DNA of 64,000 nucleotides. Origin: a virus. The position numbers and the translations under genes are program-made. Numbering within the stretch: position 1 is the first letter of the stretch; the number at the start of each line of letters is the position of its first letter. A model generated the notes under the pieces. The model worked only from the letters and a program-made list of their open reading frames with translations, was not told where the DNA came from and ran no database searches. The stretch lies in the IMG/VR virus record IMGVR_UViG_3300049617_000144, positions 6,562 to 70,561 of that record; one strand, written 5' to 3'. This document shows, piece after piece, positions 21,781 to 61,000 of the stretch.

Positions 21781-21810
21781 TGGGCCTGCTATAAGATAGT
21801 GTTGAAATGA

Positions 21811-21849
21811 AAAGACCTTCATGAAAACAATTCATGAAGGTCTTTTTTT
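21811..21849. terminator. Intrinsic terminator
   Basis: AAAGACCTTCATGAA-aacaa-TTCATGAAGGTCTTTTTT. Confidence 0.8.
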
Positions 21850-21858
21850 GAGGAGATT

Positions 21859-21996
21859 GTGTCTCCATTTTGGGTTGACCTGTCTCCTGGCCTAAGACCA
21901 TCCGAGACCCATGAAAGTCATTACCCAGCATAACCGGAATTTACACCATCCTCATGGGCAGATGTAGACCCGATTGGTTATGCAACAGGGATACAC
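21859..21996 (-). ncRNA. Candidate structured ncRNA (~140 nt, three-way junction)
   Basis: Intergenic. Closing stem GTGTATCC/GGAGACAC; arm 1 GCATAACC/GGTTATGC; arm 2 TGGGT/ACCCA, TGAC/GTCA, GTCTC/GAGAC. CTAGATA upstream, terminator downstream. Confidence 0.5.
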
Positions 21997-22155
21997 TATC
22001 TAGTTTTCGCAATCTTTTTCTCACCTGAAAAAAAGTTCAGTGCCTGAAATTAGCCAAGTTCGGCTGCGTCGATAGGCGACTTCTCCAGATTGCTCTTGAA
22101 TTTCTTGGCTGCCTTCATGAAAGTATTGAAGACATCCTCCTAGTTAAATACCTAC

Positions 22156-41397: not shown

Positions 41398-41457
41398 CTA
41401 AATAAAAGCGTGCCTCTGGTGACACTTGCTAAAGGCTAACCCTTCTGGATTAGAAGG

Positions 41458-41552
41458 AGACGAAGGTGGGATTTGAACCCACGAAACACTCGGCTAGAGC
41501 GATGTGCGTGGTTAGCAGCCACGCTCCTTAGACCAGACTCGGACACTTCGTC
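41458..41552 (-). tRNA. tRNA-Ser (GCT)
   Basis: Acceptor GACGAAG/CTTCGTC; anticodon arm CGTGG-CTGCTAA-CCACG; long variable arm; T arm GTGGG-TTCAAAT-CCCAC. Confidence 0.9.
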
Positions 41553-45214: not shown

Positions 45215-45834
45215 ATACGATCAATATCATAACAACAGCCGAACGTTCTGTTCTATACATCCACGATACGATGAAAAGTATATTTGCGTCGAAGTGGGAA
45301 GGACAAATCAACTTAATAGCTGGGTCCAAGGACACAAATTATTTGAACGAATACAAATCCAACCCGCAATGCAAGATCATTCCTTGGTGGGTTCCCTGGA
45401 TGCAAGAGGGTGCGAAAGAAGAAAATGAAGGCAGAAAAAGAGCCCGATGTGGTTTCAATCACATTAGAGCAATAGCTTACGGCCCGAGTCCTTGCTTGAT
45501 AATCGAGGACGACGTGATCTTTGTTCCTGGATGGCAGGAAGAACTGCAAAAAATTACAAACAGTATGTCTGAAGTTGATTACGTTTTAGATGTGGGCAAA
45601 CACCAGAAAGACACTTTGATTAAATGGGATGGATCTCTTCAGGGGGCTTGGGGATTGTATTTCTCATCCGTCAACGTAAGATTGAAATCTGTTGAATACC
45701 TTTTAACACGCACAGATGGGTGTTGCGATGTCTTGATAGGCAAGTCAGTAACTGAAAATTTCACTTTGTGGCAGACCAAGACTTTGGTTCGCCATATTGG
45801 CAACGTGTCAACCTTTAGCAGGAAAGATAGTTAA
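45211..45834 (+). CDS. Glycosyltransferase (GT-A, family 25-like)
   Basis: NH..A, LIIEDDV, D..I, VRHIG. Confidence 0.65.
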   Translation: MNTINIITTAERSVLYIHDTMKSIFASKWEGQINLIAGSKDTNYLNEYKSNPQCKIIPWWVPWMQEGAKEENEGRKRARCGFNHIRAIAYGPSPCLIIEDDVIFVPGWQEELQKITNSMSEVDYVLDVGKHQKDTLIKWDGSLQGAWGLYFSSVNVRLKSVEYLLTRTDGCCDVLIGKSVTENFTLWQTKTLVRHIGNVSTFSRKDS

Positions 45835-46350
45835 ATGATATTTGTCGAAGAAGATGATAACCGTTTTTACATCAAAGAATCAACATTGCCCAATGCTGGC
45901 TTGGGATGTTTTGCCAAAATACTAATTCCAAAAGGCGATTGGCTGGAAATCATCGGTGTGTACGTCAAAACTGGCGGGATTGCCGACAAATGCACGCATT
46001 ACGCCAAACGGTACAAATTCGCAGGTTCTCCCAAGATGGATGCCAAAATAGTTCCAATGGGCTTTGGCGGCATGGTTAATCACAGCAGTGACTCTAAAGT
46101 TCAGAATGTCGTCCTTGAATATTGTGCCGGACTTAGTAAAAGGAGTAGTCATTCCGGCCAGGTTATCTACCGGGCCTTGCGGGACATCCAACCCGACGAG
46201 GAGCTAATAGGCAATTATGGCGATGTTATAGGAGCCGAAGTGGATCGCATGGCGAAGAACACAAGCTTCTTTTTGACGGAACTTGAGGACTGGCAAAAGT
46301 TTGTGTCTCTGAACCCCTATAATTTGCAAGATTTGATCGACAAGTTGTAA
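45835..46350 (+). CDS. SET-domain methyltransferase
   Basis: STLPNAGLGCFA...I.KG, VNHS, ALRDIQPDEELIGNY. Confidence 0.88.
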   Translation: MIFVEEDDNRFYIKESTLPNAGLGCFAKILIPKGDWLEIIGVYVKTGGIADKCTHYAKRYKFAGSPKMDAKIVPMGFGGMVNHSSDSKVQNVVLEYCAGLSKRSSHSGQVIYRALRDIQPDEELIGNYGDVIGAEVDRMAKNTSFFLTELEDWQKFVSLNPYNLQDLIDKL

Positions 46351-46410
46351 ATCACAACTCATTGACTGGCAATGCGTTAAAAAATTATTGGAAAAAATTT
46401 CAAAAAAGGC

Positions 46411-46491
46411 TGGACACTTTCGCCACTCGACTGTAAATTACTGGAGTGAGATGAATGAACGGCAGCAACGGCTGCAAGCGATCTTTGAAAA
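46411..46491 (+). promoter_or_regulatory. rRNA-like promoter with UP element and boxB/boxA antitermination-like leader
   Basis: A-tracts, TGGACA-17 nt-TAAATT; hairpin GCAGC-aacg-GCTGC followed by GATCTTTGAAAA. Confidence 0.6.
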
Positions 46492-47313
46492 CTTAGAGAG
46501 TCACTTTGAGAGTCCAGGTGGTGACCGAAAGGACACCACACATAACTAAGTTCGCAACAAAACTGAGGTGCTAGCCTCAGGTACAAAATGGTAATCTTGC
46601 GAGAAAAACCAAGGGAAGCGGTGATACAGCCGCTTACGGCGAGCAATAAAGTCAGGTGCAAACACCTGATTGGAAGGTTTACCGGAAGGTTGAGACGGGC
46701 ATCGGCATTAAGATGAGCCGCCCATATAAACTGGAAGAGTCGAGAGAGTCAACCAGGACAAATGGTAGCTAAAAGGCCACTTGAATCGTCAGGCACGCAG
46801 ACCTGACGAAGATTGGTGCAATCTTAATGGCGTCTTGGGTTAAGACATAGAAGTAGCAATCTCTATGGCATTCCCATTTCCCTCCCCACAAGGGAGGAAC
46901 ATCCTGGCGAGGATGGAATGAAGACGTTGAGCCTGGTTCACGCCTAGAAACGACGTTACCTTACACGACAGGGACAAGGAAATCAGTAGTCAAGATCACC
47001 CGCAAATGACAATTAGGATTCACAAGGTAATTATTGGCAGGGGGCTTCTGGGTAATCGCTTGGAGCAATCTAGGCGATGAAAGAAGTACTGACAAATATT
47101 ACGTTGAGAGGAATAAGCGTCGTGAGCGGAATGAGAAACAACTGATTGTCACGCCGACTGGTTAATCTGGTGGCAACACCCAGCAGTAAGCCCAAAAAGG
47201 CTAAAGGTACACGACTCCAGTTGGAAAGTTGCAAAAAGAATGACGGACTCGCTGAGCCAGTATATCGTACCTCTACGCAAGCAAGTGCGGTTCTGGTAAA
47301 AAAAGTGTGCTGT
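46446..47313 (+). ncRNA. Candidate large structured ncRNA (~870 nt; GOLLD/ROOL-size class)
   Basis: No credible ORF; more than 12 hairpins, several GNRA-capped; own promoter and terminator. Confidence 0.7.
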
Positions 47314-47361
47314 AAAACCCCGAACAGCGGAACTAACGTTCTGCGTTCGGGGTTTTCTTTT
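47314..47361 (+). terminator. Intrinsic terminator
   Basis: AAAACCCCGAAC...GTTCGGGGTTTTCTTTT. Confidence 0.8.
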
Positions 47362-47364
47362 CAT

Positions 47365-48273
47365 TCACGCTTTCATATCGTCTTGCGACAAAAACGAAAA
47401 ATACTGCACATGATTGTACCTTAGATCTATTTCGCAGTATTTGTCGTTTTTGTTGAAATAATTTGCCCAGAGATTTTCTAATTTCCAAGCCTCACAAAGC
47501 TTGCCGCTATCGTCATAAAGCCTGATGAGTCCGGTAGCGGTAGTCTCCTCTTTGGCCGAGTTGATTAGCTTCAAGAATGCTTCCGAGTGTGGAAGATCAG
47601 AATTGTTGATGAACATTTTCATCGTCTGCCATTTGTACTTGCCAGCCACGAATAATTTTCCGTGCAGGAAATCAATTTCAGTTTCATCTATGTCAACTCT
47701 TGGCCGTCGTGGAATTTCCACATCAATCTCTTCCTTAGCCCCTTCTAGCAGGAATCGCCATTTGTATTTGCAAGGTTCAAGGAAGAACTGGCGGGAAGCC
47801 ACTTGGTATTCCATTACTATTTCCTGCAACACCTCTTCCGAAGAAGCCATGTCAAAATCCAACTCCCTGCTAGCCAATTTCAAGCCGCTGAATGTGTATG
47901 CATAGAGTCCTTTCCCGCAACCATCCCACACTGTCAATTTAATAGTTTCATCAGGCCAGCGGCCATCTTCCATACTTTTTGCCCACAGTTCAATAGGCGA
48001 ATCGCTACCTTGTTGTCCTTTATAGGCTTGTTCAGGGGCCTCTACCAATTCATAAGCCTTGATAAAAAGCTGCTTTTTTGCTAAATTTACATGAGCCGCC
48101 TTAATAACCCAATCTGGAATATTAGGCCCTTCCAAACTGAATCTGAACTTTCTAACAAAAATCATATTTTGACACCCTAGTTTCCCAAGACCCATTGGCC
48201 GCTCTGGAATTTCCAACGACGGCACAGGTTTCTGGACGGGCGTAGAGTATCCCCGTTCGCATTTTTCTCGCAT
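47365..48273 (-). CDS. Protein with two tandem T4 gp19 tail-tube-like domains
   Basis: RKFRF...L...DGCG....Y...LDFD..S; then KWRF...RP.VDIDETEIDFLHGK..VAGK.KW...LYD..G...E.W.L...LRY. Confidence 0.6.
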   Translation of the reverse strand: MREKCERGYSTPVQKPVPSLEIPERPMGLGKLGCQNMIFVRKFRFSLEGPNIPDWVIKAAHVNLAKKQLFIKAYELVEAPEQAYKGQQGSDSPIELWAKSMEDGRWPDETIKLTVWDGCGKGLYAYTFSGLKLASRELDFDMASSEEVLQEIVMEYQVASRQFFLEPCKYKWRFLLEGAKEEIDVEIPRRPRVDIDETEIDFLHGKLFVAGKYKWQTMKMFINNSDLPHSEAFLKLINSAKEETTATGLIRLYDDSGKLCEAWKLENLWANYFNKNDKYCEIDLRYNHVQYFSFLSQDDMKA

Positions 48274-48365
48274 AGATTATCCTTTGGATTAAAAAAAGAA
48301 ATGTAATCTAATGATAGTGTTGGTTTAGAAATTCTCAAAAAAAACAATAGCTTATGCAACAAGAA

Positions 48366-50840
48366 TTAAAAGTTGATTTGCTCCATGATATTCACTTCAT
48401 GTTTTTCCTTCTTTAGTATTTGGATTCGTTCCCAAGAATGATCCTCAAGATATTCATTGATACGGAAAATGAAGTCGTAATAATGCAGGACTGACTTATC
48501 ATCGCACGTTCGCAGTCCTCGGCCCATTCCTTGAATAACGTCATGTTCTGCTTTGCCGCCCCCGGCGTTTATCAAATTGTGAAGGAATACGTTGATGCCA
48601 GCAGAGAAGATGCCTTTGGTAGCGATAGCAACCACGTTCCCAGTAGCCTCTGTCAATTGCTTGATGACATGGGATCGAGAATCTTCATTGTCCTTTCCTT
48701 GGACCCATAAAGAGCCTGGGATCAGGTTATTTAAGGTGTCGCCGTGAGCTAGGCGTTCAACTAATATGAGCGTTCGACCAGTCAGTTTCTTGGTCAGACG
48801 AGCTACCATTTGATGGAAATGCCAGTTCTGAGCAATCCCATTAGTCACAGCATCGATATAGATGTCATGAGGGATCTGTGGCTCGTCCACATAATAGAAA
48901 AAGCACTTTGATGGCGACAAGTCATGTCGTTCCTCTTGCAGGAAATTAGTCGTTAGCTTGCCGCTCTCAGTAACGCTGGTGAGCAGGATTGGACCAAAAA
49001 ACCCTTTTACGCCATATTTGTGAACGAGATCAGTGCCGCCGTGCTTGAATGGTGTGGCACTTAAGCCTATACGGACCTCACAGCCGGTTAGTTTTTTGTA
49101 GATCTTCATGGCAGTGGGGTTCATCATCATATGAACTTCATCCACGATCAATGCTCGAAACATAGTCAGTAGTTTGCCTAATTTCATGGCAGATTGGGAT
49201 GTTGCACAGGTAATCAAGTTCGGCTCATGCACATCTCCATCGAATCTTCCAACTCTATCAAAGCCCCACCCCATGATCTCTTTATAGTTTTGCAAGACTA
49301 ACCCTTTGCGATTACAAAGAAATAGGATTGGCGTATTGGGCGGCAGGGCTTTCATGATGCCGATGAGAATGTAAGTGTTATGCGTCACTACAAAATTATC
49401 AGTCATGTATAAATGATCTGGATGATCTACCATGATACATTGACATTCTTTTTTATCTATATATTCAACGTGCGATATGGTCTTATTTTTGTTCCAGACT
49501 CTTGTCAATTTACATCTGGATATTTTCCATTTTATCTTAAATGGTATAAGACCTTCTGGTAAACTAACGCTAATTTGATATGCTTTTTTCCCAAGCTTTT
49601 TTTTGCCTTTATAAGTGAAGTGTTTTAATTTCTCTTTAGTACGTGATGTGCCACCAAGTGAACGTATAAGCCAACTAATGTTTTCTGCAAGAACTAACGA
49701 AGTTGTCGTATATGATAAATGTCCCTTTTTTGAAACGGAACCATCTGTATCCATAAGTCCCTGCAACAAAGCCAAACGAGACTCATAGCTGTTGATTAGG
49801 TAAATGCGTGGTATGAATTTTTCATGTGATTTTTTCCCAGCAAGTCCAAGATTCTTGATGATTGAGTAGTAGTAATTGGGTGATCCTCCACGGCCATACT
49901 TCCCTTTAGTTATTCGATAATCACACGGATGTGTTTTACTTCTCTTTAGTTCATATCCAGGTTCTAGTTTGTTAATTATTTCAGTAAGAATGTCAGATTC
50001 TATCGAACTCACGCCCATTCCGTGCTTTATTCTAAAGCACCCATCTCCTAACAACACGCCAAAAAAATATGAATCTAGTGGCGTTTGACATGCTTTGAAA
50101 TCGATCCGCTTTGGCATGCTAATATTAAATCGCTTTGCTCCATTAGGACATAAAAAACGAGCATGAATTTCTTTTGCAGAAATTACTTTTTCGCACCATC
50201 CGTCATATGTTGCATTGACCTTCCACAAATGATCTTCACAACATTCAACTTGATCTCCGTCTGAAAAAGTTATTTTGATAATCGGTTTCAAACCTTGTGG
50301 AAAAACTCCAGTTATTTTAGCAAAACCACCAGATGGCACACATACTAAATCTCCGATTGTAATATCACCCATGCGACGAAACCCACTAGGTGTAGCCACT
50401 AGCGAATCTAAAGGTTGAGCTTTCCCAGATGCGGTGGGGCTTTGGATAATACCCCGGTGGTATTTGATGACTTGATTGATGAAGTCAGCCTGGAAGTCCT
50501 TTAGAACGACAGGTTTGTTTTTTGGATTAGGAAACGGTTTAAGAAAGTCGGTATCTACTTTTTCGTATTGGAACTTGACTGGAGACCTCTCATCCAGAAG
50601 GGTGTAAGGGTAGCCCCACGTATAAAGAGCCAGTTTGACCTCTGGAAGAAGTCCAGTGAGGAACTTGCCAGAGTTTTCATTGAAGAAGTTAATGAAACCG
50701 TCCCACTTCTTTTGCTTGTAAAGCCTGGAGTGGAAGTACCCAGGTTTGCGAAATCTCAAAGATTGGTATAGTTTTGTGAATAACTCAGTGTCGTTACTCT
50801 GTAAATAGCTGAAGTCGTTTTTAACTTTGATTAAATTCAT
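48366..50840 (-). CDS. uvsW: UvsW-like SF2 helicase interrupted by an intein
   Basis: WDG, SPTASGK|intein|T, DEVH, GLSATP, FSAGIN, IQGMGRGLR. Confidence 0.9.
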   Translation of the reverse strand: MNLIKVKNDFSYLQSNDTELFTKLYQSLRFRKPGYFHSRLYKQKKWDGFINFFNENSGKFLTGLLPEVKLALYTWGYPYTLLDERSPVKFQYEKVDTDFLKPFPNPKNKPVVLKDFQADFINQVIKYHRGIIQSPTASGKAQPLDSLVATPSGFRRMGDITIGDLVCVPSGGFAKITGVFPQGLKPIIKITFSDGDQVECCEDHLWKVNATYDGWCEKVISAKEIHARFLCPNGAKRFNISMPKRIDFKACQTPLDSYFFGVLLGDGCFRIKHGMGVSSIESDILTEIINKLEPGYELKRSKTHPCDYRITKGKYGRGGSPNYYYSIIKNLGLAGKKSHEKFIPRIYLINSYESRLALLQGLMDTDGSVSKKGHLSYTTTSLVLAENISWLIRSLGGTSRTKEKLKHFTYKGKKKLGKKAYQISVSLPEGLIPFKIKWKISRCKLTRVWNKNKTISHVEYIDKKECQCIMVDHPDHLYMTDNFVVTHNTYILIGIMKALPPNTPILFLCNRKGLVLQNYKEIMGWGFDRVGRFDGDVHEPNLITCATSQSAMKLGKLLTMFRALIVDEVHMMMNPTAMKIYKKLTGCEVRIGLSATPFKHGGTDLVHKYGVKGFFGPILLTSVTESGKLTTNFLQEERHDLSPSKCFFYYVDEPQIPHDIYIDAVTNGIAQNWHFHQMVARLTKKLTGRTLILVERLAHGDTLNNLIPGSLWVQGKDNEDSRSHVIKQLTEATGNVVAIATKGIFSAGINVFLHNLINAGGGKAEHDVIQGMGRGLRTCDDKSVLHYYDFIFRINEYLEDHSWERIQILKKEKHEVNIMEQINF
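49377..50420 (-). mobile_element. Intein (348 aa, Ala-start, class 3 signature) with LAGLIDADG endonuclease
   Basis: GK/AQPLDS...EDHLW...GVLLGDG...LLQGLMDTDG...ECQCI...VVTHN/T. Confidence 0.92.
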
Positions 50841-58082: not shown

Positions 58083-61000
58083 TTATTCGTAGAACTTGTT
58101 GAATTCACCTTTGTCCATGATAGAACTTGGGTTGTTCACTCGCACTTGATTGCGATGATCCTTGATGAAGGAATCAATGAAATTGTAAGTGCGAATCTTT
58201 TGACCTCGACCACCATCACCCAGAGTTTTCTTCCGATACTCGGAATATTCAGCATCGGCCTCTGATTGATATTTATCCCGAACTCTGGCCGTAATGATCT
58301 TCATAGCCTCCTTTTTGTTGGCATGTTGGATGAACTCAGCACAGGTATCGCTACCTGTACTGGTCTTCAAAACCGTACTTGAGAGTTTGCCCCTCATACG
58401 GCTCCTCGAATAGTTAGTCGTTTTCATCGACACTCCCCTCTGAGTTCGCAGCCGGTCCATGTTCGCTGTCGTGACAGTGACCATGTAGAGCCACCCGGTT
58501 CGACTTCTTGTTGTTAGCGTGGTTCCCGTCCTTGTGGTGAACCTCGATAACGTCGTCCGGCAAGAAACTTAGCCCACAGTTCGGACACCTACCACCCTGC
58601 CCCTTGATTAGCTTCGCCAACCAGAGGGTGATACCGGGATAGTAGCCTGTCCGAGCCGCCCAATAAGTCCAGTCACCGTCGAAGGGGCTTTTGTCGCCCT
58701 GAACCTTCACATGACGCTGGATATGCACCATGCTGTGTTTCAGGAGCGTCTTGACGCCCTCCTTTGGTCCGAACATCCAGAGTGGCATACGCCAGTACCT
58801 ACTGACGATCCACTTCATCGGCTTGTTCGGGTGTCTCCATCTCGCCCAAGTTCGGAGGCTGTGATACATCACGTCGTCTGCCTTTTGGAAAGACTTCGTG
58901 CTGACCACAGTACGGTAGTAGTTGCACCAGCCACGGATGATTGGATTCAGCCGTGCGATCAGAGCCTCCTGTGCGGCTCCCCGGTGCTGTCGGATGATCT
59001 CAGCGATCTCCCGACAGCGCAGCATTACCTTCTCCTTGCTCGGTCTGATGATGGTCTTGAAACCCAACAACTCCCCCTTCGTCGTCTTGCCACTGTGCGT
59101 CTTCCCCACAGGGAACTGCCGTACATGGAAGCCTAGAAAGTGGAACCCGGTCACGCCATCCATTTCGTTCATGGTATGAGCGATGCGGGTCTTGCTCGGT
59201 TTCAATTCCAAACCCATGCCCTTGAGCCATTCCGAAGCGACTTCCTTACACTTTTCCACCACATCCCGATCCCGGTGCATAACAACGAAGTCGTCTGCGT
59301 ACCGTACCACGGTTGGTGTCCAACAGATGTTTCTGTCTCCCGGCATGGTCTTCGGGACGGCGGCTTGCACCGCTACCTCCAGCCCATGCAGAGCGATGTT
59401 CGCCAGAAGGGGCGAGATGACCCCTCCCTGCGGCGTACCATCTTCTGTCGGAAAAAGTGTACCTCCATCGAGGACGCCAGCCTTTAGCCACGCACGGACG
59501 AGCCGTTCGATCTGCGGGATGGTGTCCAGCTTCTTCAACAATGCCTCATGGTTGATACGGTCGAAGCACTTGGCTATGTCGGCGTCGAGTACGAACTTCG
59601 GCATGTGCCTCACGCTCGTAAAGATCGCCGCAACCGCATCATGTGCAGAGCGTCCCGGTCGGAACCCGTAGCTGTTCGGCTCAAAAAGAGCCTCCCACTC
59701 AGGTTCAAGTGCCAGTTTGACCAGTGCTTGTAAGGCACGGTCTGCCATCACAGGTATGCCCAACGGTCGCTTCTCGTCCGTGCCGGGTTTGGGTATCCAG
59801 ACACGTCGCACAGGAAGCGGTCGTTGGTCGAGGCTCAGGTGTTCAACCAGTTCCAGACGTTCATGTGGTTCTAGGGATGCTACTCCGTCGATACCAGCAG
59901 TACGCTTTCCTCGATTGTCCTGAGTCACCTTGCGAACGGCAAGGCACTTAGCCGACCAAGAACTCATCAGAAGACGCTGTAACCTATGGACTAGGTTCTT
60001 GTCTCCCTTTTGGGATGCTCGGTAGATTCTCTGTTGAAGTGCGTGGACTTCCCGTTGGACCTTCGCCCACGGTATGTCCCGCCACTCCTGTACTCCAGTT
60101 TCCTGTGTACTCATGGTATCCTTCAACATCGACCCTACCTTCTAACTAATCGTGATCCTGTCAGCATATCCATCGGCTTTCCCGATGGCATTCGCTTCTG
60201 GATCAATCCTGCCTCTGAGTACCATACGCTTGACTGCTACTCCCGAAGGAGAGGTGTTTCAGAGGTTTCCTCGTTCCTGATAACCGTTTGACGCTGTGTT
60301 TAGGACGATACTCTTCGCCGGTGAGCAAGTGGGTAAAAACCACGCTTCGAGACAGAGCTAGGTCTGCTCACGTTGTCCATTTTGGACCCAGCCTGATAAA
60401 CTGCGTAGGCTGGTTAAACGTTACGACGATTATAGCGTATCTTCACTTTCGTTGTCCATGCACAGCTATGCTAGACGGGATTCCCGGTCAGTTTCCGAGT
60501 TACCGCCATTTCACCCATGCACCGCATAAATCACTTTGTCAGGGGTGATTCATGTGGGTGATGCTGTCAGGGGTTTACCTCCCCGGCAGGAATTGCACCT
60601 GCACGATTACCAAGTTGTCGGGATCATATAAGACCCAATCTTACATGATCCTGCGGGTGGTTTTCGAGTCGAAACTCGATTAGCACCCAACGAGTCGCAC
60701 ATCTCTGCCGTTTATGAATACGTTCAGGCCAGTCGGAATGTGCCTGATACGAACAGCACTGGCGGTCTTGTTCTGGTGCTGCCCGCCCTTACCGTGACCG
60801 CATTGCGTGATCACTTCAATCTCTTCTTCCTTGAGAGGCACCCAAACGTCTTCCTTGATCGGCAAGACTCCAACCGTGATCATGGACGTGTGCCGTCGTC
60901 CCTTGGTTTCTGTCGGCGGAACCCTTTGGCAACAATGCCCACCAGTTTCATTTTTGAAGTATCGCCAGACGTTTTGACCACGAATTTGAACGATGAAGTG

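What the first reader, a model, noticed from the sequence alone, without database searches (positions are those of the whole stretch)
46381..47361. ~900 nt hairpin-dense non-coding transcript with rRNA-operon-style promoter and boxB/boxA leader
Seen: a ~1 kb gap with no credible ORF in an otherwise gene-dense genome. It has an A-tract UP element, TGGACA-17-TAAATT, a hairpin followed by GATCTTTGAAAA, and a strong terminator. Stems include GTGGTG..CCGAAAGG..CACCAC, CTGAGG/CCTCAG, AAGCGG/CCGCTT, TCAGGTG-caaa-CACCTGA, TCGTCAGG/CCTGACGA, CATCCT/AGGATG, TCGCTTGGA-GCAA-TCTAGGCGA and GGTG-GCAA-CACC. Possible long-range pairs are AATCAGT/ACTGATT and CTGGAGT/ACTCCAG. Established: boxB-boxA leaders recruit Nus antitermination for long untranslated RNAs, and giant phage RNAs (GOLLD ~800 nt, ROOL ~600 nt) exist. 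Inference: an abundant large structured RNA, either a divergent member of such a class or a new one. I cannot assign a family by eye.
Basis: partly seen in the sequence, partly recalled or inferred. Interest (0 to 1): 0.85.

Follow-up and report, generated by a model that had tools for sequence, protein, structure and literature searches.

The report
New 800-base phage RNA, abundant in soils
The gene-free kilobase in this fragment of a very large soil phage is a real gene for a highly folded non-coding RNA of about 800 bases that matches no catalogued RNA family, turns up as a discrete molecule in soil, wetland, litter and moss RNA surveys, and whose job is still unknown.

Summary
The gap is real and holds no credible ORF under table 11 or three alternative codes. 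It folds far better than shuffles (z -8.4 on +, -6.2 on -). GNRA-capped hairpins occur only on the + strand (6 vs 0). It matches none of 4227 Rfam families at E<=10, and ROOL was also tested by name.

Eighteen metatranscriptome runs from 15 studies hold it almost letter for letter. In all 4 runs I laid, one 785-824-nt contig covers only 46512/21 to 47305/23, and the flanking genes have no cover. The mature RNA is therefore about 800 nt, not about 900, and the proposed leader is absent.

An 87%-identical variant carries two compensatory pair changes. Two much more divergent RNA contigs of the same length share collinear 33-38-nt blocks. Together these point to an uncatalogued family.

In two related ~500-kb phages the flanking genes abut. 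The RNA gene plus a tail-tube paralogue is therefore a ~2-kb accessory insertion.

The boxA match is chance-level. Function is unknown. My best guess is a stable folded RNA of the GOLLD/ROOL kind.

The parts
46351..48365 (.). About 2-kb accessory insertion (RNA gene plus tail-tube paralogue) between the SET-domain gene and the helicase gene
   Evidence: By tblastn, the SET and helicase homologues of related records G001 and G003 end within a few bases of each other, convergently, with the M14 peptidase gene next. There is no room for an RNA gene or p302.
46380..46407 (+). Three A-tracts spaced about 10-12 nt apart (UP-element-like) upstream of the -35 hexamer
   Evidence: Read directly from the sequence. 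Function is inferred.
46411..46439 (+). Sigma-70-like promoter candidate TGGACA-17-TAAATT, predicted start near 46446
   Evidence: Consensus scan, 9 of 12 positions. Such sites are near chance frequency (4 found, 2.8 expected). Use of this promoter is not shown.
46446..46511 (+). Putative leader with two hairpins (46462-75; 46482-99) and a 12-nt tandem repeat (46491-46514). Absent from the accumulated RNA.
   Evidence: Fold of 46440-46545, z -3.8. Repeat D4. No RNA contig covers it in 4 of 4 runs laid.
46488..46501 (+). Motif GAAAACT(T)AGA[GT]AGT, shared with the upstream region of a second small-RNA candidate at 22006 (-). Alternative promoter or processing signal.
   Evidence: The core AAACT(T)AGA[GT]AG occurs only twice in the 70.5-kb record, both times directly upstream of ORF-free folded units.
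46512..47323 (+). Accumulated (mature) structured RNA of about 800 nt. The 5' end is at 46512. The 3' end lies between 47305 and 47323 or a little beyond.
   Evidence: One contig of 785-824 nt per run in 4 of 4 metatranscriptomes, at 0-2 differences. In X3 an adapter is fused directly before 46512. GNRA-capped hairpins number 6 on + and 0 on -.
46578..46615 (+). Conserved block A, shared with a divergent 784-nt RNA contig
   Evidence: X11 record 2 matches 34 of 38 letters at its positions 64-101, which is collinear with the 5' end of this RNA.
46786..46809 (+). Hairpin UCGUCAGG/CCUGACGA with a compensatory change in the 87% variant
   Evidence: 46793 G>A together with 46802 C>U, and 46790 C>U giving G-U.
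46741..46746 (+). GAGA tetraloop closed by C-G. The closing pair becomes A-U in the 87% variant.
   Evidence: 46741 C>A together with 46746 G>U.
47195..47227 (+). Conserved block B, shared with a divergent 799-nt RNA contig
   Evidence: X13 record 4 matches 30 of 33 letters at its positions 82-114, which is collinear with both ends of this RNA.
47314..47363 (.). Bidirectional intrinsic terminator shared with the convergent p302 gene
   Evidence: Perfect 12-nt arms at 47314-25 / 47345-56, extended in the fold, followed by TTTTCTTTT.
47365..48273 (-). p302, a tail-tube-family paralogue with an inserted or duplicated domain, co-inserted with the RNA gene
   Evidence: phrog_4542 tail tube, E 9e-4. 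Homologues include a PF06841 protein. Foldseek gives PVC/AFP/T4 gp19 tube proteins with E from 1e-5 (the model is weak, pLDDT 58.6).

Best explanation
Window 46512 to about 47312/47323 (+ strand) is a stand-alone gene for a stable, compactly folded non-coding RNA of about 800 nt. The RNA belongs to an uncatalogued family.

Context:
- It sits on a ~2-kb accessory cassette with its own promoter region and a bidirectional terminator, next to a tail-tube paralogue.
- The cassette lies in a fragment of a ~500-kb soil or moss megaphage.

Shown:
- It is non-coding.
- It folds far better than chance.
- It accumulates as a discrete species far above the neighbouring mRNAs in many terrestrial metatranscriptomes.
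- Natural variants preserve its helices.
- RNAs of the same length that share only short collinear blocks exist in other samples.

Inferred:
- It is made during infection. Either transcription starts at the sigma-70-like promoter at 46411-39 and a 66-nt leader is removed, or it starts near 46506-12 from a phage-specific signal.
- It acts through its folded shape, as a scaffold, a sequestering particle or a self-assembling particle like the large ornate phage RNAs GOLLD and ROOL. It does not act as an antisense regulator or an mRNA.

My confidence is about 0.85 for a real structured RNA gene of a new family. It is only about 0.3 for the shape-based, GOLLD/ROOL-like mode of action.
For: Non-coding:
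- No ORF exceeds 94 aa.
- Codes 4, TAG=Q and TAA=Q give no frame with any Pfam or PHROG support in the gap.
- The 87% variant carries a 1-nt insertion.

Structure:
- z is -8.39 on + and -6.19 on -.
- GNRA-capped hairpins (stem of at least 3 bp) number 6 on + and 0 on -. Shuffles give a mean of 2.0, and 1 of 300 reaches 6.

Expression:
- 18 RNA runs from 15 studies hold 74-83% of the sampled 31-mers. The habitats are soil 9, wetland 4, rhizosphere 2, litter 1, moss 1 and plant 1.
- I laid 4 of those 18. Each has one contig of 785-824 nt at 0-2 differences covering only 46512/17/21 to 47305/10/12/23.
- Cover over 45400-46511 and 47324-48400 is zero, there are no joints, and in X3 an adapter is fused at 46512.

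Covariation:
- Of the 20 listed substitutions in the 87% variant, 4 form two compensatory pairs, 3 keep a pair through G-U, 2 break a pair, and 11 lie at positions unpaired or paired with probability below 0.5.
- Permutation gives P(at least 2 compensatory) = 0.013 and P(that with at most 2 breaks) = 0.0006.
- The G-U-preserving changes (A>G, C>U) work only on the + strand.

Family:
- X11 record 2 (784 nt, depth 92.7) and X13 record 4 (799 nt, depth 40.8) share blocks A and B at collinear positions. Their projected ends fall within about 25 nt of this RNA's ends.
- Their flanking 30-mers form hairpins of different sequence at the same places. For example, TAATCCTA...TAGGATTA replaces AAGCGG...CCGCTT, and AAGG...CCTT replaces CTGG...CCAG.

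Not a known family:
- No Rfam match in the body at E<=10.
- ROOL RF03087 gives none in the whole record.
- Rfam holds GOLLD, ROOL and OLE profiles according to PMC12286853 (passages read).

Accessory cassette.
Against: - Only one DNA locus is known. Exact-pattern scans of IMG/VR, JGI metagenome contigs and GTDB genomes found no other copy.
- I never obtained a full homologue sequence, so there is no proper alignment or R-scape test.
- The covariation test uses one 227-nt variant and a structure predicted from the reference itself.
- Contigs cannot strictly prove strand, ends or level. The strand and 5'-end reading of the X3 adapter relies on recalled library chemistry.
- Near-identity of the RNA across many habitats is unexplained. 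So is the fact that the neighbouring p302 protein is on record from a single contig.
- Two related phage records lack the gene, so it is dispensable for that clade.
- The mode of action rests on analogy only.
Confidence: 0.7

Rival explanations
1. The abundant RNA in the metatranscriptomes is not made by this phage. It comes from other, unsampled genomes such as a host bacterium, other mobile elements or a eukaryote. The phage merely carries a recently captured copy of a mobile or host RNA gene.
For: - The cassette is an insertion relative to related phages.
- The RNA is at least 99.7% identical in 4 of 4 runs laid, while the adjacent p302 protein is on record from one contig only.
- Only the 2 probable source runs hold the DNA.
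- The more divergent family members are 2-10 times deeper than this type in the same runs.
Against: - No copy in GTDB species genomes, JGI metagenome contigs or IMG/VR for the patterns tried.
- The gene has bacterial-type promoter and terminator signals and sits cleanly between phage genes.
- A rare 500-kb phage is unlikely to assemble from soil DNA even if one very abundant transcript assembles from RNA. This last point is inference.
Confidence: 0.2
2. It is a ribozyme or a self-processing RNA. The 5' end at 46512 is made by its own cleavage, and the folded core is catalytic.
For: - A discrete 5' end lies 66 nt downstream of the best promoter-like site.
- Tertiary-motif content is high, with many GNRA loops.
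- Earlier notes of this scan describe a large phage RNA with a built-in hammerhead (unchecked).
Against: - No hammerhead, twister, pistol, hatchet, HDV, group I, group II or RNase P match at E<=10.
- A start near 46506-12 from the shared upstream motif explains the end equally well.
Confidence: 0.1
3. It is the RNA subunit of a ribonucleoprotein formed with the co-inserted protein p302.
For: The two genes are inserted together and share a terminator.
Against: - p302 is an ordinary tail-tube-fold protein by profile and fold.
- No special base pairing between block A and the p302 mRNA: duplex -22.1 kcal/mol against a background of -22.5 +/- 2.5 over 134 tiles.
Confidence: 0.05
4. It is an artefact: a laboratory spike-in, a reagent contaminant, or DNA carry-over in RNA libraries. 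Alternatively it is a non-functional spacer that merely folds.
For: An almost identical sequence appears in many libraries, possibly from few sequencing centres. An adapter-fused contig end was seen.
Against: - All 18 RNA holders listed are terrestrial or plant-associated.
- The runs differ by natural variants: 46763 T/G, 47118 C/T, the length of an A-run, an 87% variant and far more divergent relatives.
- The flanks have no cover, which DNA carry-over would give.
- The gene lies inside a 70.5-kb phage contig, and both source runs hold 100% of the words, junctions included.
Confidence: 0.04
5. It encodes protein under a recoded stop codon. The phage carries its own release factor.
For: With TGA=W the p302 frame runs on for 175 more codons through five TGAs.
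Against: - The extension has no Pfam or PHROG match and a junk-like composition.
- It would run antisense through the terminator.
- The RNA contigs stop before p302.
- The rest of the window is gene-dense under table 11.
- The variant has a 1-nt indel.
Confidence: 0.01

Closest known systems
GOLLD RNA (giant ornate phage/prophage RNA, about 800 nt, forms a 14-mer nanocage)
   Same: Similar size. Encoded by a phage as a stand-alone non-coding gene. Elaborate predicted fold. Located in a region with tRNA and translation genes: tRNA-Ser lies 4.9 kb away and RNA-repair enzymes and a release factor are in the window. Function unknown (PMC12286853, passages read).
   Different: No match to any Rfam model at E<=10, and Rfam holds a GOLLD profile according to that paper. 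Not directly beside a tRNA island. Multimer formation is untested.
ROOL RNA (Rfam RF03087, about 580 nt, phage/prophage, 8-mer nanocage)
   Same: A large ornate phage-borne RNA with no known protein partner and no known function.
   Different: The RF03087 search of the whole 70.5-kb record found nothing at E<=10. This RNA is about 220 nt longer.
Phage T5 RNAX (AY543070 40848-41566, annotated 'stable RNA with unknown functions')
   Same: A stable phage RNA of about 0.7-0.8 kb with its own promoter and unknown role (annotation).
   Different: No sequence similarity: the best blastn word is 11 nt and nhmmer finds nothing. T5 RNAX abuts tRNA-Arg. It folds less densely (-0.27 against -0.33 kcal/mol per nt), and none of the four 4-nt loops in its MFE fold is GNRA.
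rRNA-operon leader with boxB/boxA Nus antitermination
   Same: A-tract plus a sigma-70-like promoter upstream of a long untranslated RNA. A hairpin is followed by a T-rich word.
   Different: The boxA-like word matches 9 of 12 positions at chance frequency, is predicted to be base-paired, and the leader is not in the stable RNA.
OLE and raiA motif RNAs (large abundant bacterial ncRNAs)
   Same: Abundant, ornate, of unknown or partly known function.
   Different: Those are chromosomal in Firmicutes and Actinobacteria. There is no Rfam match here, and this RNA is phage-borne.

Membership tests
GOLLD RNA | Match to the Rfam covariance model (conserved 3' domain) | tested here: not met
   cmscan of 46200-47500 against all 4227 Rfam 15 families at E<=10 gave no GOLLD hit. 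I could not run the model by accession: my recalled number RF01998 turned out to be group-II-D1D4-1.
GOLLD RNA | Located in a phage or prophage, often next to a tRNA island | tested here: inconclusive
   Phage record. The only tRNA in the window, tRNA-Ser, lies 4.9 kb away. The record is only 14% complete.
GOLLD / ROOL | Homo-oligomeric RNA-only nanocage | not testable with these tools
   Needs native gel, SEC or cryo-EM of the in-vitro transcript.
ROOL RNA (RF03087) | Match to the Rfam covariance model | tested here: not met
   No match at E<=10 in the whole record. The tool's 14 control genomes gave no hit either, so sensitivity was not demonstrated. One search also gave none.
Nus-dependent boxB/boxA antitermination leader | boxA word close to the consensus, single-stranded, in the transcript | tested here: not met
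   9 of 12 positions match. There are 72 such matches in the window against 78.7 expected. The word is paired in the predicted leader fold. The consensus was recalled from memory.
Group II intron (ORF-less) | Domain V/VI model match and a GUGYG 5' end | tested here: not met
   RF00029 hits only 58330-58406 in the window, and nothing in the RNA at E<=10. The RNA starts GUCCAG.
Phage T5 RNAX | Sequence similarity to rnaX | tested here: not met
   blastn and nhmmer found no significant match.
rRNA, tmRNA, RNase P RNA | Rfam model match | tested here: not met
   No hit at E<=10. ARAGORN finds no tRNA or tmRNA in the stretch.
Protein-coding gene (standard or recoded) | Long open frame with family support or codon-type conservation | tested here: not met
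   The substitutions in the variant show no clear codon periodicity, and one 1-nt insertion is present.

The most novel reading that the evidence does not exclude
This is the first DNA locus for a previously unrecognised, widespread family of ~800-nt ornate RNAs. They accumulate in soils, wetlands, litter and moss at very high RNA-to-DNA ratios. They are carried as a mobile promoter-to-terminator cassette by half-megabase phages. The RNA works as an RNA-only machine, either a self-assembling particle in the manner of the GOLLD/ROOL nanocages or a new ribozyme.
Probability: 0.3. Interest if true: 0.9.

Novelty: new variant of a known kind. Interest (0 to 1): 0.77.

Why it matters
Only a handful of bacterial or phage RNA classes above 500 nt are known, among them rRNA, GOLLD, ROOL, OLE, HEARO and T5 RNAX. 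Each has proved structurally remarkable, yet the functions of the phage ones are still unknown.

This finding adds a new, apparently family-sized example. It has an unusually strong expression record: 18 terrestrial metatranscriptome runs from 15 studies. It also has defined ends, so it could go directly to in-vitro transcription and cryo-EM.

It ties an abundant but unannotated RNA of soil metatranscriptomes to a genomic source, a megaphage. It also shows that the gene is an accessory cassette rather than core phage equipment. That points to a role in host takeover or defence evasion that could be tested by presence/absence comparisons.

Tried and rejected
Homologue hunting that found nothing:
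- blastn against 50,697 phage records gave no match.
- Among neighbour-gene relatives in IMG/VR, p302 has none and SET has 2 loci. Neither locus holds the RNA, and in L003 the SET homologue is followed directly by ORFs.
- Four related phage records were found through the RecA-like gene.
  - A BLAST search of them gave only 14-22-nt chance words. The three I inspected lie in ORFs.
  - nhmmer --max on the full records gave nothing better than E 24.
  - None of their 15 tested ORF-poor gaps resembles the RNA in fold density plus GNRA content.
- Exact and degenerate pattern scans gave no real hit:
  - IMG/VR: 0 hits in five scans.
  - JGI metagenome contigs: 0 hits in one scan, and 10 hits in another that match only the pattern itself.
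  - GTDB genome contigs: 0 hits in two scans.
Absence is therefore weak evidence.
- Earlier-findings look-ups by sequence were blank.

Ideas rejected:
- CsrA-type sponge: 18 GGA observed, 18.2 expected.
- Antisense pairing of block A with the p302 mRNA is at background level.
- TGA=W extension of p302.
- Domain-V-like GAGCC...GGUUC seen by eye at 47254-47294: no model match.
- Internal duplication: only short repeats.
- RNase P-like words seen by eye: no model match.

Literature:
- Six full-text searches listed no paper on a phage RNA of this kind from soil. I saw listings and abstract starts only.
- I read passages of PMC12286853 and PMC13282480. The latter, a jumbo-phage review, holds one sentence on non-coding RNAs.
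- Supplements were not opened. The supplementary tables of the GOLLD/ROOL paper might list related sequences.

The 42.7-kb contig encoding the 47% p302 homologue P0002 could therefore not be inspected.
- Run search and read laying were capped at one call each, so only 4 of 18 RNA runs were laid and no raw reads were seen.
Full report
WHERE THE WINDOW LIES

The window is bases 6562-70561 of a 70.5-kb IMG/VR virus record that CheckV rates as 14% complete. That implies a genome of about 500 kb.

The window carries T4-type replication and repair genes: a RecA/UvsX-like protein, gp32, a DnaB-like helicase, PolA and an Rnl1-type RNA ligase. It also carries one tRNA-Ser, a group II intron domain V/VI and TnpB.

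The closest records in IMG/VR share 55-56% identity in the RecA-like protein. Two of them are 187 kb and 210 kb long and are rated 37% and 42% complete, which again implies about 500 kb.

THE OBSERVATION

Between the SET-domain gene (45835-46350, +) and a 302-aa gene (47365-48273, -) lies 1014 bp without a credible ORF. The longest frames are 94 aa on - and 92 aa on +.

Because the phage has its own release-factor gene, I also read the stretch with TGA=W, TAG=Q and TAA=Q.
- Only TGA=W gives anything long. It is a 175-codon run-on of the 302-aa gene through five TGAs, antisense to the candidate RNA.
- That run-on has no Pfam or PHROG support beyond the native protein.

The 917-nt stretch 46445-47361 folds to -317 kcal/mol against -255 +/- 7 for shuffles, z -8.39. 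The reverse strand gives z -6.19.

Hairpins capped by GNRA tetraloops (stem of at least 3 bp) number 6 on the + strand and 0 on the - strand. Shuffles give a mean of 2.0, and 1 of 300 reaches 6.

The composition is purine-rich (A 33%, G 27%), and G+C is 0.48 against 0.43 for the record.

IS IT A KNOWN RNA?

At gathering thresholds Rfam 15 finds only the tRNA and the group II intron elsewhere in the window.

At E<=10 on 46200-47500 there are ten weak hits, to microRNA, snoRNA or leader models. All are far below threshold. Most lie on the terminator or on a hairpin inside the neighbouring gene.

There is nothing for GOLLD, ROOL, OLE, HEARO, RNase P, tmRNA, rRNA, group I or II introns, or small ribozymes.
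- ROOL (RF03087) searched by name over the whole record also gives nothing.
- The cryo-EM paper on GOLLD, ROOL and OLE states that Rfam holds profiles for all three (PMC12286853, passages read).
- My recalled accession for GOLLD, RF01998, was wrong. It is group-II-D1D4-1.

Phage T5 RNAX is a 719-nt 'stable RNA with unknown functions'. It shows no similarity to this RNA.

EXPRESSION

The run index lists 18 metatranscriptome runs from 15 studies that hold 74-83% of the sampled 31-mers of 46381-47361.
- The habitats are soil 9, wetland 4, rhizosphere 2, leaf litter 1, moss 1 and plant 1, over 2017-2025.
- Two of these runs are of equal size and may be one data set.
- Only two DNA runs hold it, and these are the probable source samples.

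I laid 4 of the 18 runs on 45400-48400.
- Each has exactly one near-identical contig:
  - 794 nt, 46517-47310, 1 difference.
  - 785 nt, 46521-47305, 2 differences.
  - 824 nt, 46512-47312, 0 substitutions and one A fewer.
  - 812 nt, 46512-47323, 1 difference.
- Nothing at all covers the flanking genes. This argues against DNA carry-over and for a discrete, much more abundant RNA.
- There are no joints, so nothing suggests a circular or spliced form.
- In X3 the contig carries 24 letters of Illumina adapter directly before 46512.
  - From recalled library design, that is the read-2 side. In dUTP-stranded libraries it marks the 5' end of a + strand RNA.
  - This is a hint, not proof, because contigs do not formally show strand or ends.

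The stable RNA is thus about 800 nt, running from 46512 to roughly 47312-47323. The proposed leader (46446-46511) is not part of it.

VARIATION AND STRUCTURE

The runs differ by natural variants: 46763 T>G in 3 of 4 runs and 47118 C>T in 1 of 4.

X5 also holds a 227-nt contig only 87% identical, covering 46620-46843. The table lists 20 substitutions and one 1-nt insertion. I mapped these on the predicted fold of the mature RNA.
- 46741 C>A with 46746 G>U turns the C-G pair that closes a GAGA tetraloop into A-U.
- 46793 G>A with 46802 C>U turns a G-C pair of the UCGUCAGG/CCUGACGA stem into A-U.
- 46654 A>G, 46713 A>G and 46790 C>U each give a G-U pair.
- Two changes break predicted pairs.
- Eleven fall at positions that are unpaired or paired with probability below 0.5.

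Randomising positions 20,000 times gives P = 0.013 for at least two compensatory pairs, and P = 0.0006 for that together with at most two breaks. The G-U-preserving changes would be mismatches on the other strand, which supports the + strand.

Caveat: this is one variant, and the structure was predicted from the reference itself.

A FAMILY

The same laying shows two other RNA contigs of almost the same length that match only short blocks.
- X11 record 2 is 784 nt at depth 92.7.
  - It matches 46578-46615 (34 of 38 letters) at its positions 64-101.
  - Its ends therefore project to 46515 and 47298.
- X13 record 4 is 799 nt at depth 40.8.
  - It matches 47195-47227 (30 of 33 letters) at its positions 82-114 on the other strand.
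  - Its ends therefore project to 46510 and 47308.

Matches of that quality are not expected by chance in libraries of this size. My estimate is about 5e-5 and 3e-3 expected. The collinearity with both ends of this RNA is an independent coincidence on top of that.

The 30-letter loose ends printed beside the blocks form hairpins at the same places as here, but with different sequence.
- After block A, TAATCCTA-loop-TAGGATTA stands in place of AAGCGG-loop-CCGCTT.
- Before block B, AAGG-loop-CCTT stands in place of CTGG-loop-CCAG, and the conserved AGCAGTA follows.
- Before block A, CTGAGGGGT...ACCCACAG stands in place of CTGAGGT...GCCTCAG.

This is helix-level covariation. I conclude that an uncatalogued family of ~785-800-nt RNAs exists in terrestrial metatranscriptomes. 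I could not retrieve full sequences.

GENOMIC SETTING

tblastn of the flanking proteins against the two large related records shows conserved order: p123, SET (58-63% identity), helicase (61-62%), M14 peptidase (38-41%).
- In both relatives the SET and helicase genes end within a few bases of each other.
- In this phage, therefore, 46351-48365 is a ~2-kb insertion comprising the RNA gene and p302.
- The helicase here also carries a LAGLIDADG intein that the relatives lack.

p302 belongs to the tail-tube family.
- PHROG tail tube, E 9e-4.
- One of its homologues carries PF06841.
- The top Foldseek matches are PVC, AFP, Mu and T4 gp19 tube proteins with E from 1e-5, on a weak model of pLDDT 58.6.
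- It has an extra inserted domain shared only with one 47%-identical protein from a 42.7-kb contig.
- I see no sign that it is an RNA partner. Duplex energy between block A and its mRNA is at background level.

The related records contain no detectable homologue of the RNA, but they are incomplete.

START OF THE RNA

There are two readings.

(a) Promoter at 46411-39 with leader removal.
- Three A-tracts and TGGACA-17-TAAATT predict a start near 46446.
- A 66-nt leader with two hairpins would then be removed.

(b) Start near 46506-12 from a phage-specific signal.
- The word GAAAACTTAGAGAGT (46488-46501) resembles GAAAACTAGATAGT upstream of a second ORF-free, strongly folded unit on the - strand. 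That unit is 21805-21995, z -5.47, with its own terminator.
- The core AAACT(T)AGA[GT]AG occurs only at these two places in the 70.5-kb record.
- It could therefore be a phage-specific start or processing signal placing the 5' end at about 46506-12.

I cannot decide between the two. I lean 60:40 to (a) because of the phased A-tracts.

The boxA idea fails. The word matches the recalled consensus at 9 of 12 positions, as do 72 sites in the window against 78.7 expected, and it is predicted to be paired.

WHAT REMAINS ODD

- The RNA is at least 99.7% identical in the four runs laid, and by word share it is similarly close in the other holders.
- Its DNA is known from one contig only.
- The neighbouring protein is on record from one contig in a collection of about 15 billion proteins.
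- Pattern scans of IMG/VR, JGI metagenome contigs and GTDB genomes found no other copy.
- A very high RNA-to-DNA ratio from a rare phage can explain this, because a 500-kb genome rarely assembles from soil. That is inference.
- A source other than this phage is the main rival. The cassette is an insertion, so capture or mobility is plausible.

MECHANISM

Nothing in the sequence points to antisense action.
- There is no extended complementarity within the record.
- There is no protein-sponge repeat (GGA is at expectation).
- There is no known ribozyme.

The properties that are shown resemble GOLLD, ROOL and T5 RNAX most closely:
- abundance and defined ends;
- a dense fold rich in GNRA loops;
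- a conserved length with conserved, largely unpaired blocks;
- phage carriage near tRNA and translation genes.

I therefore favour a shape-based role as a scaffold, sequestering particle or self-assembling particle, at roughly 0.3. A ribozyme and a foreign origin are the main alternatives.

VERDICT

This is a real gene of a new large structured RNA family with an unusually good expression record. It is a new family within the known kind 'large ornate phage RNAs of unknown function'. Other agents of this scan have reported comparable unassigned large phage RNAs on other DNA (unchecked notes). By sequence look-up, none resembles this one.

Noticed in passing
window 21805-22006 (- strand): A second ORF-free unit of about 190 nt folds strongly (z -5.47) and has its own terminator. 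It is preceded by GAAAACTAGATAGT. The core AAACT(T)AGA[GT]AG occurs only here and directly upstream of the 800-nt RNA in the whole 70.5-kb record. It has no Rfam match at gathering.
   Followed up: partly
window 48366-50840 (- strand): The 824-aa helicase carries a LAGLIDADG homing-endonuclease (intein-like) insert at about residues 149-488. The insert is absent from the 61-62% identical helicases of related records G001 and G003.
   Followed up: partly
window 47383-47458: A 25-nt inverted repeat (88% complementary, 26-nt loop) lies inside the 3' coding end of p302. It produces weak microRNA-like Rfam hits. One arm resembles block A of the RNA at 16 of 18 positions. Unexplained. Duplex energy with block A is at background level.
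   Followed up: partly
G001 66741-72862 and 178845-179193; G003 99864-112301; window 41456-41552: The related megaphage records carry 10 and 11 tRNA genes that are all Ser, Leu or Tyr, the long-variable-arm class, plus a tmRNA in G001. The only tRNA in this window is also tRNA-Ser.
   Followed up: no
L099 15689-16124 (= G001 135689-136124, + strand): A 436-nt ORF-poor gap in the related phage folds strongly (z -6.37) and ends in long terminator-like hairpins. It has no Rfam family above threshold and no sequence similarity to the 800-nt RNA.
   Followed up: partly
window 46840-48273 (- strand): With TGA read as Trp the p302 frame stays open for 175 more codons through five TGAs. The extension has no family support and looks like chance on a pyrimidine-rich strand.
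   Followed up: yes
window 58330-58406 (- strand): Rfam group II intron domain V/VI hit at 44.2 bits, just above the gathering score.
   Followed up: no
   Followed up: yes
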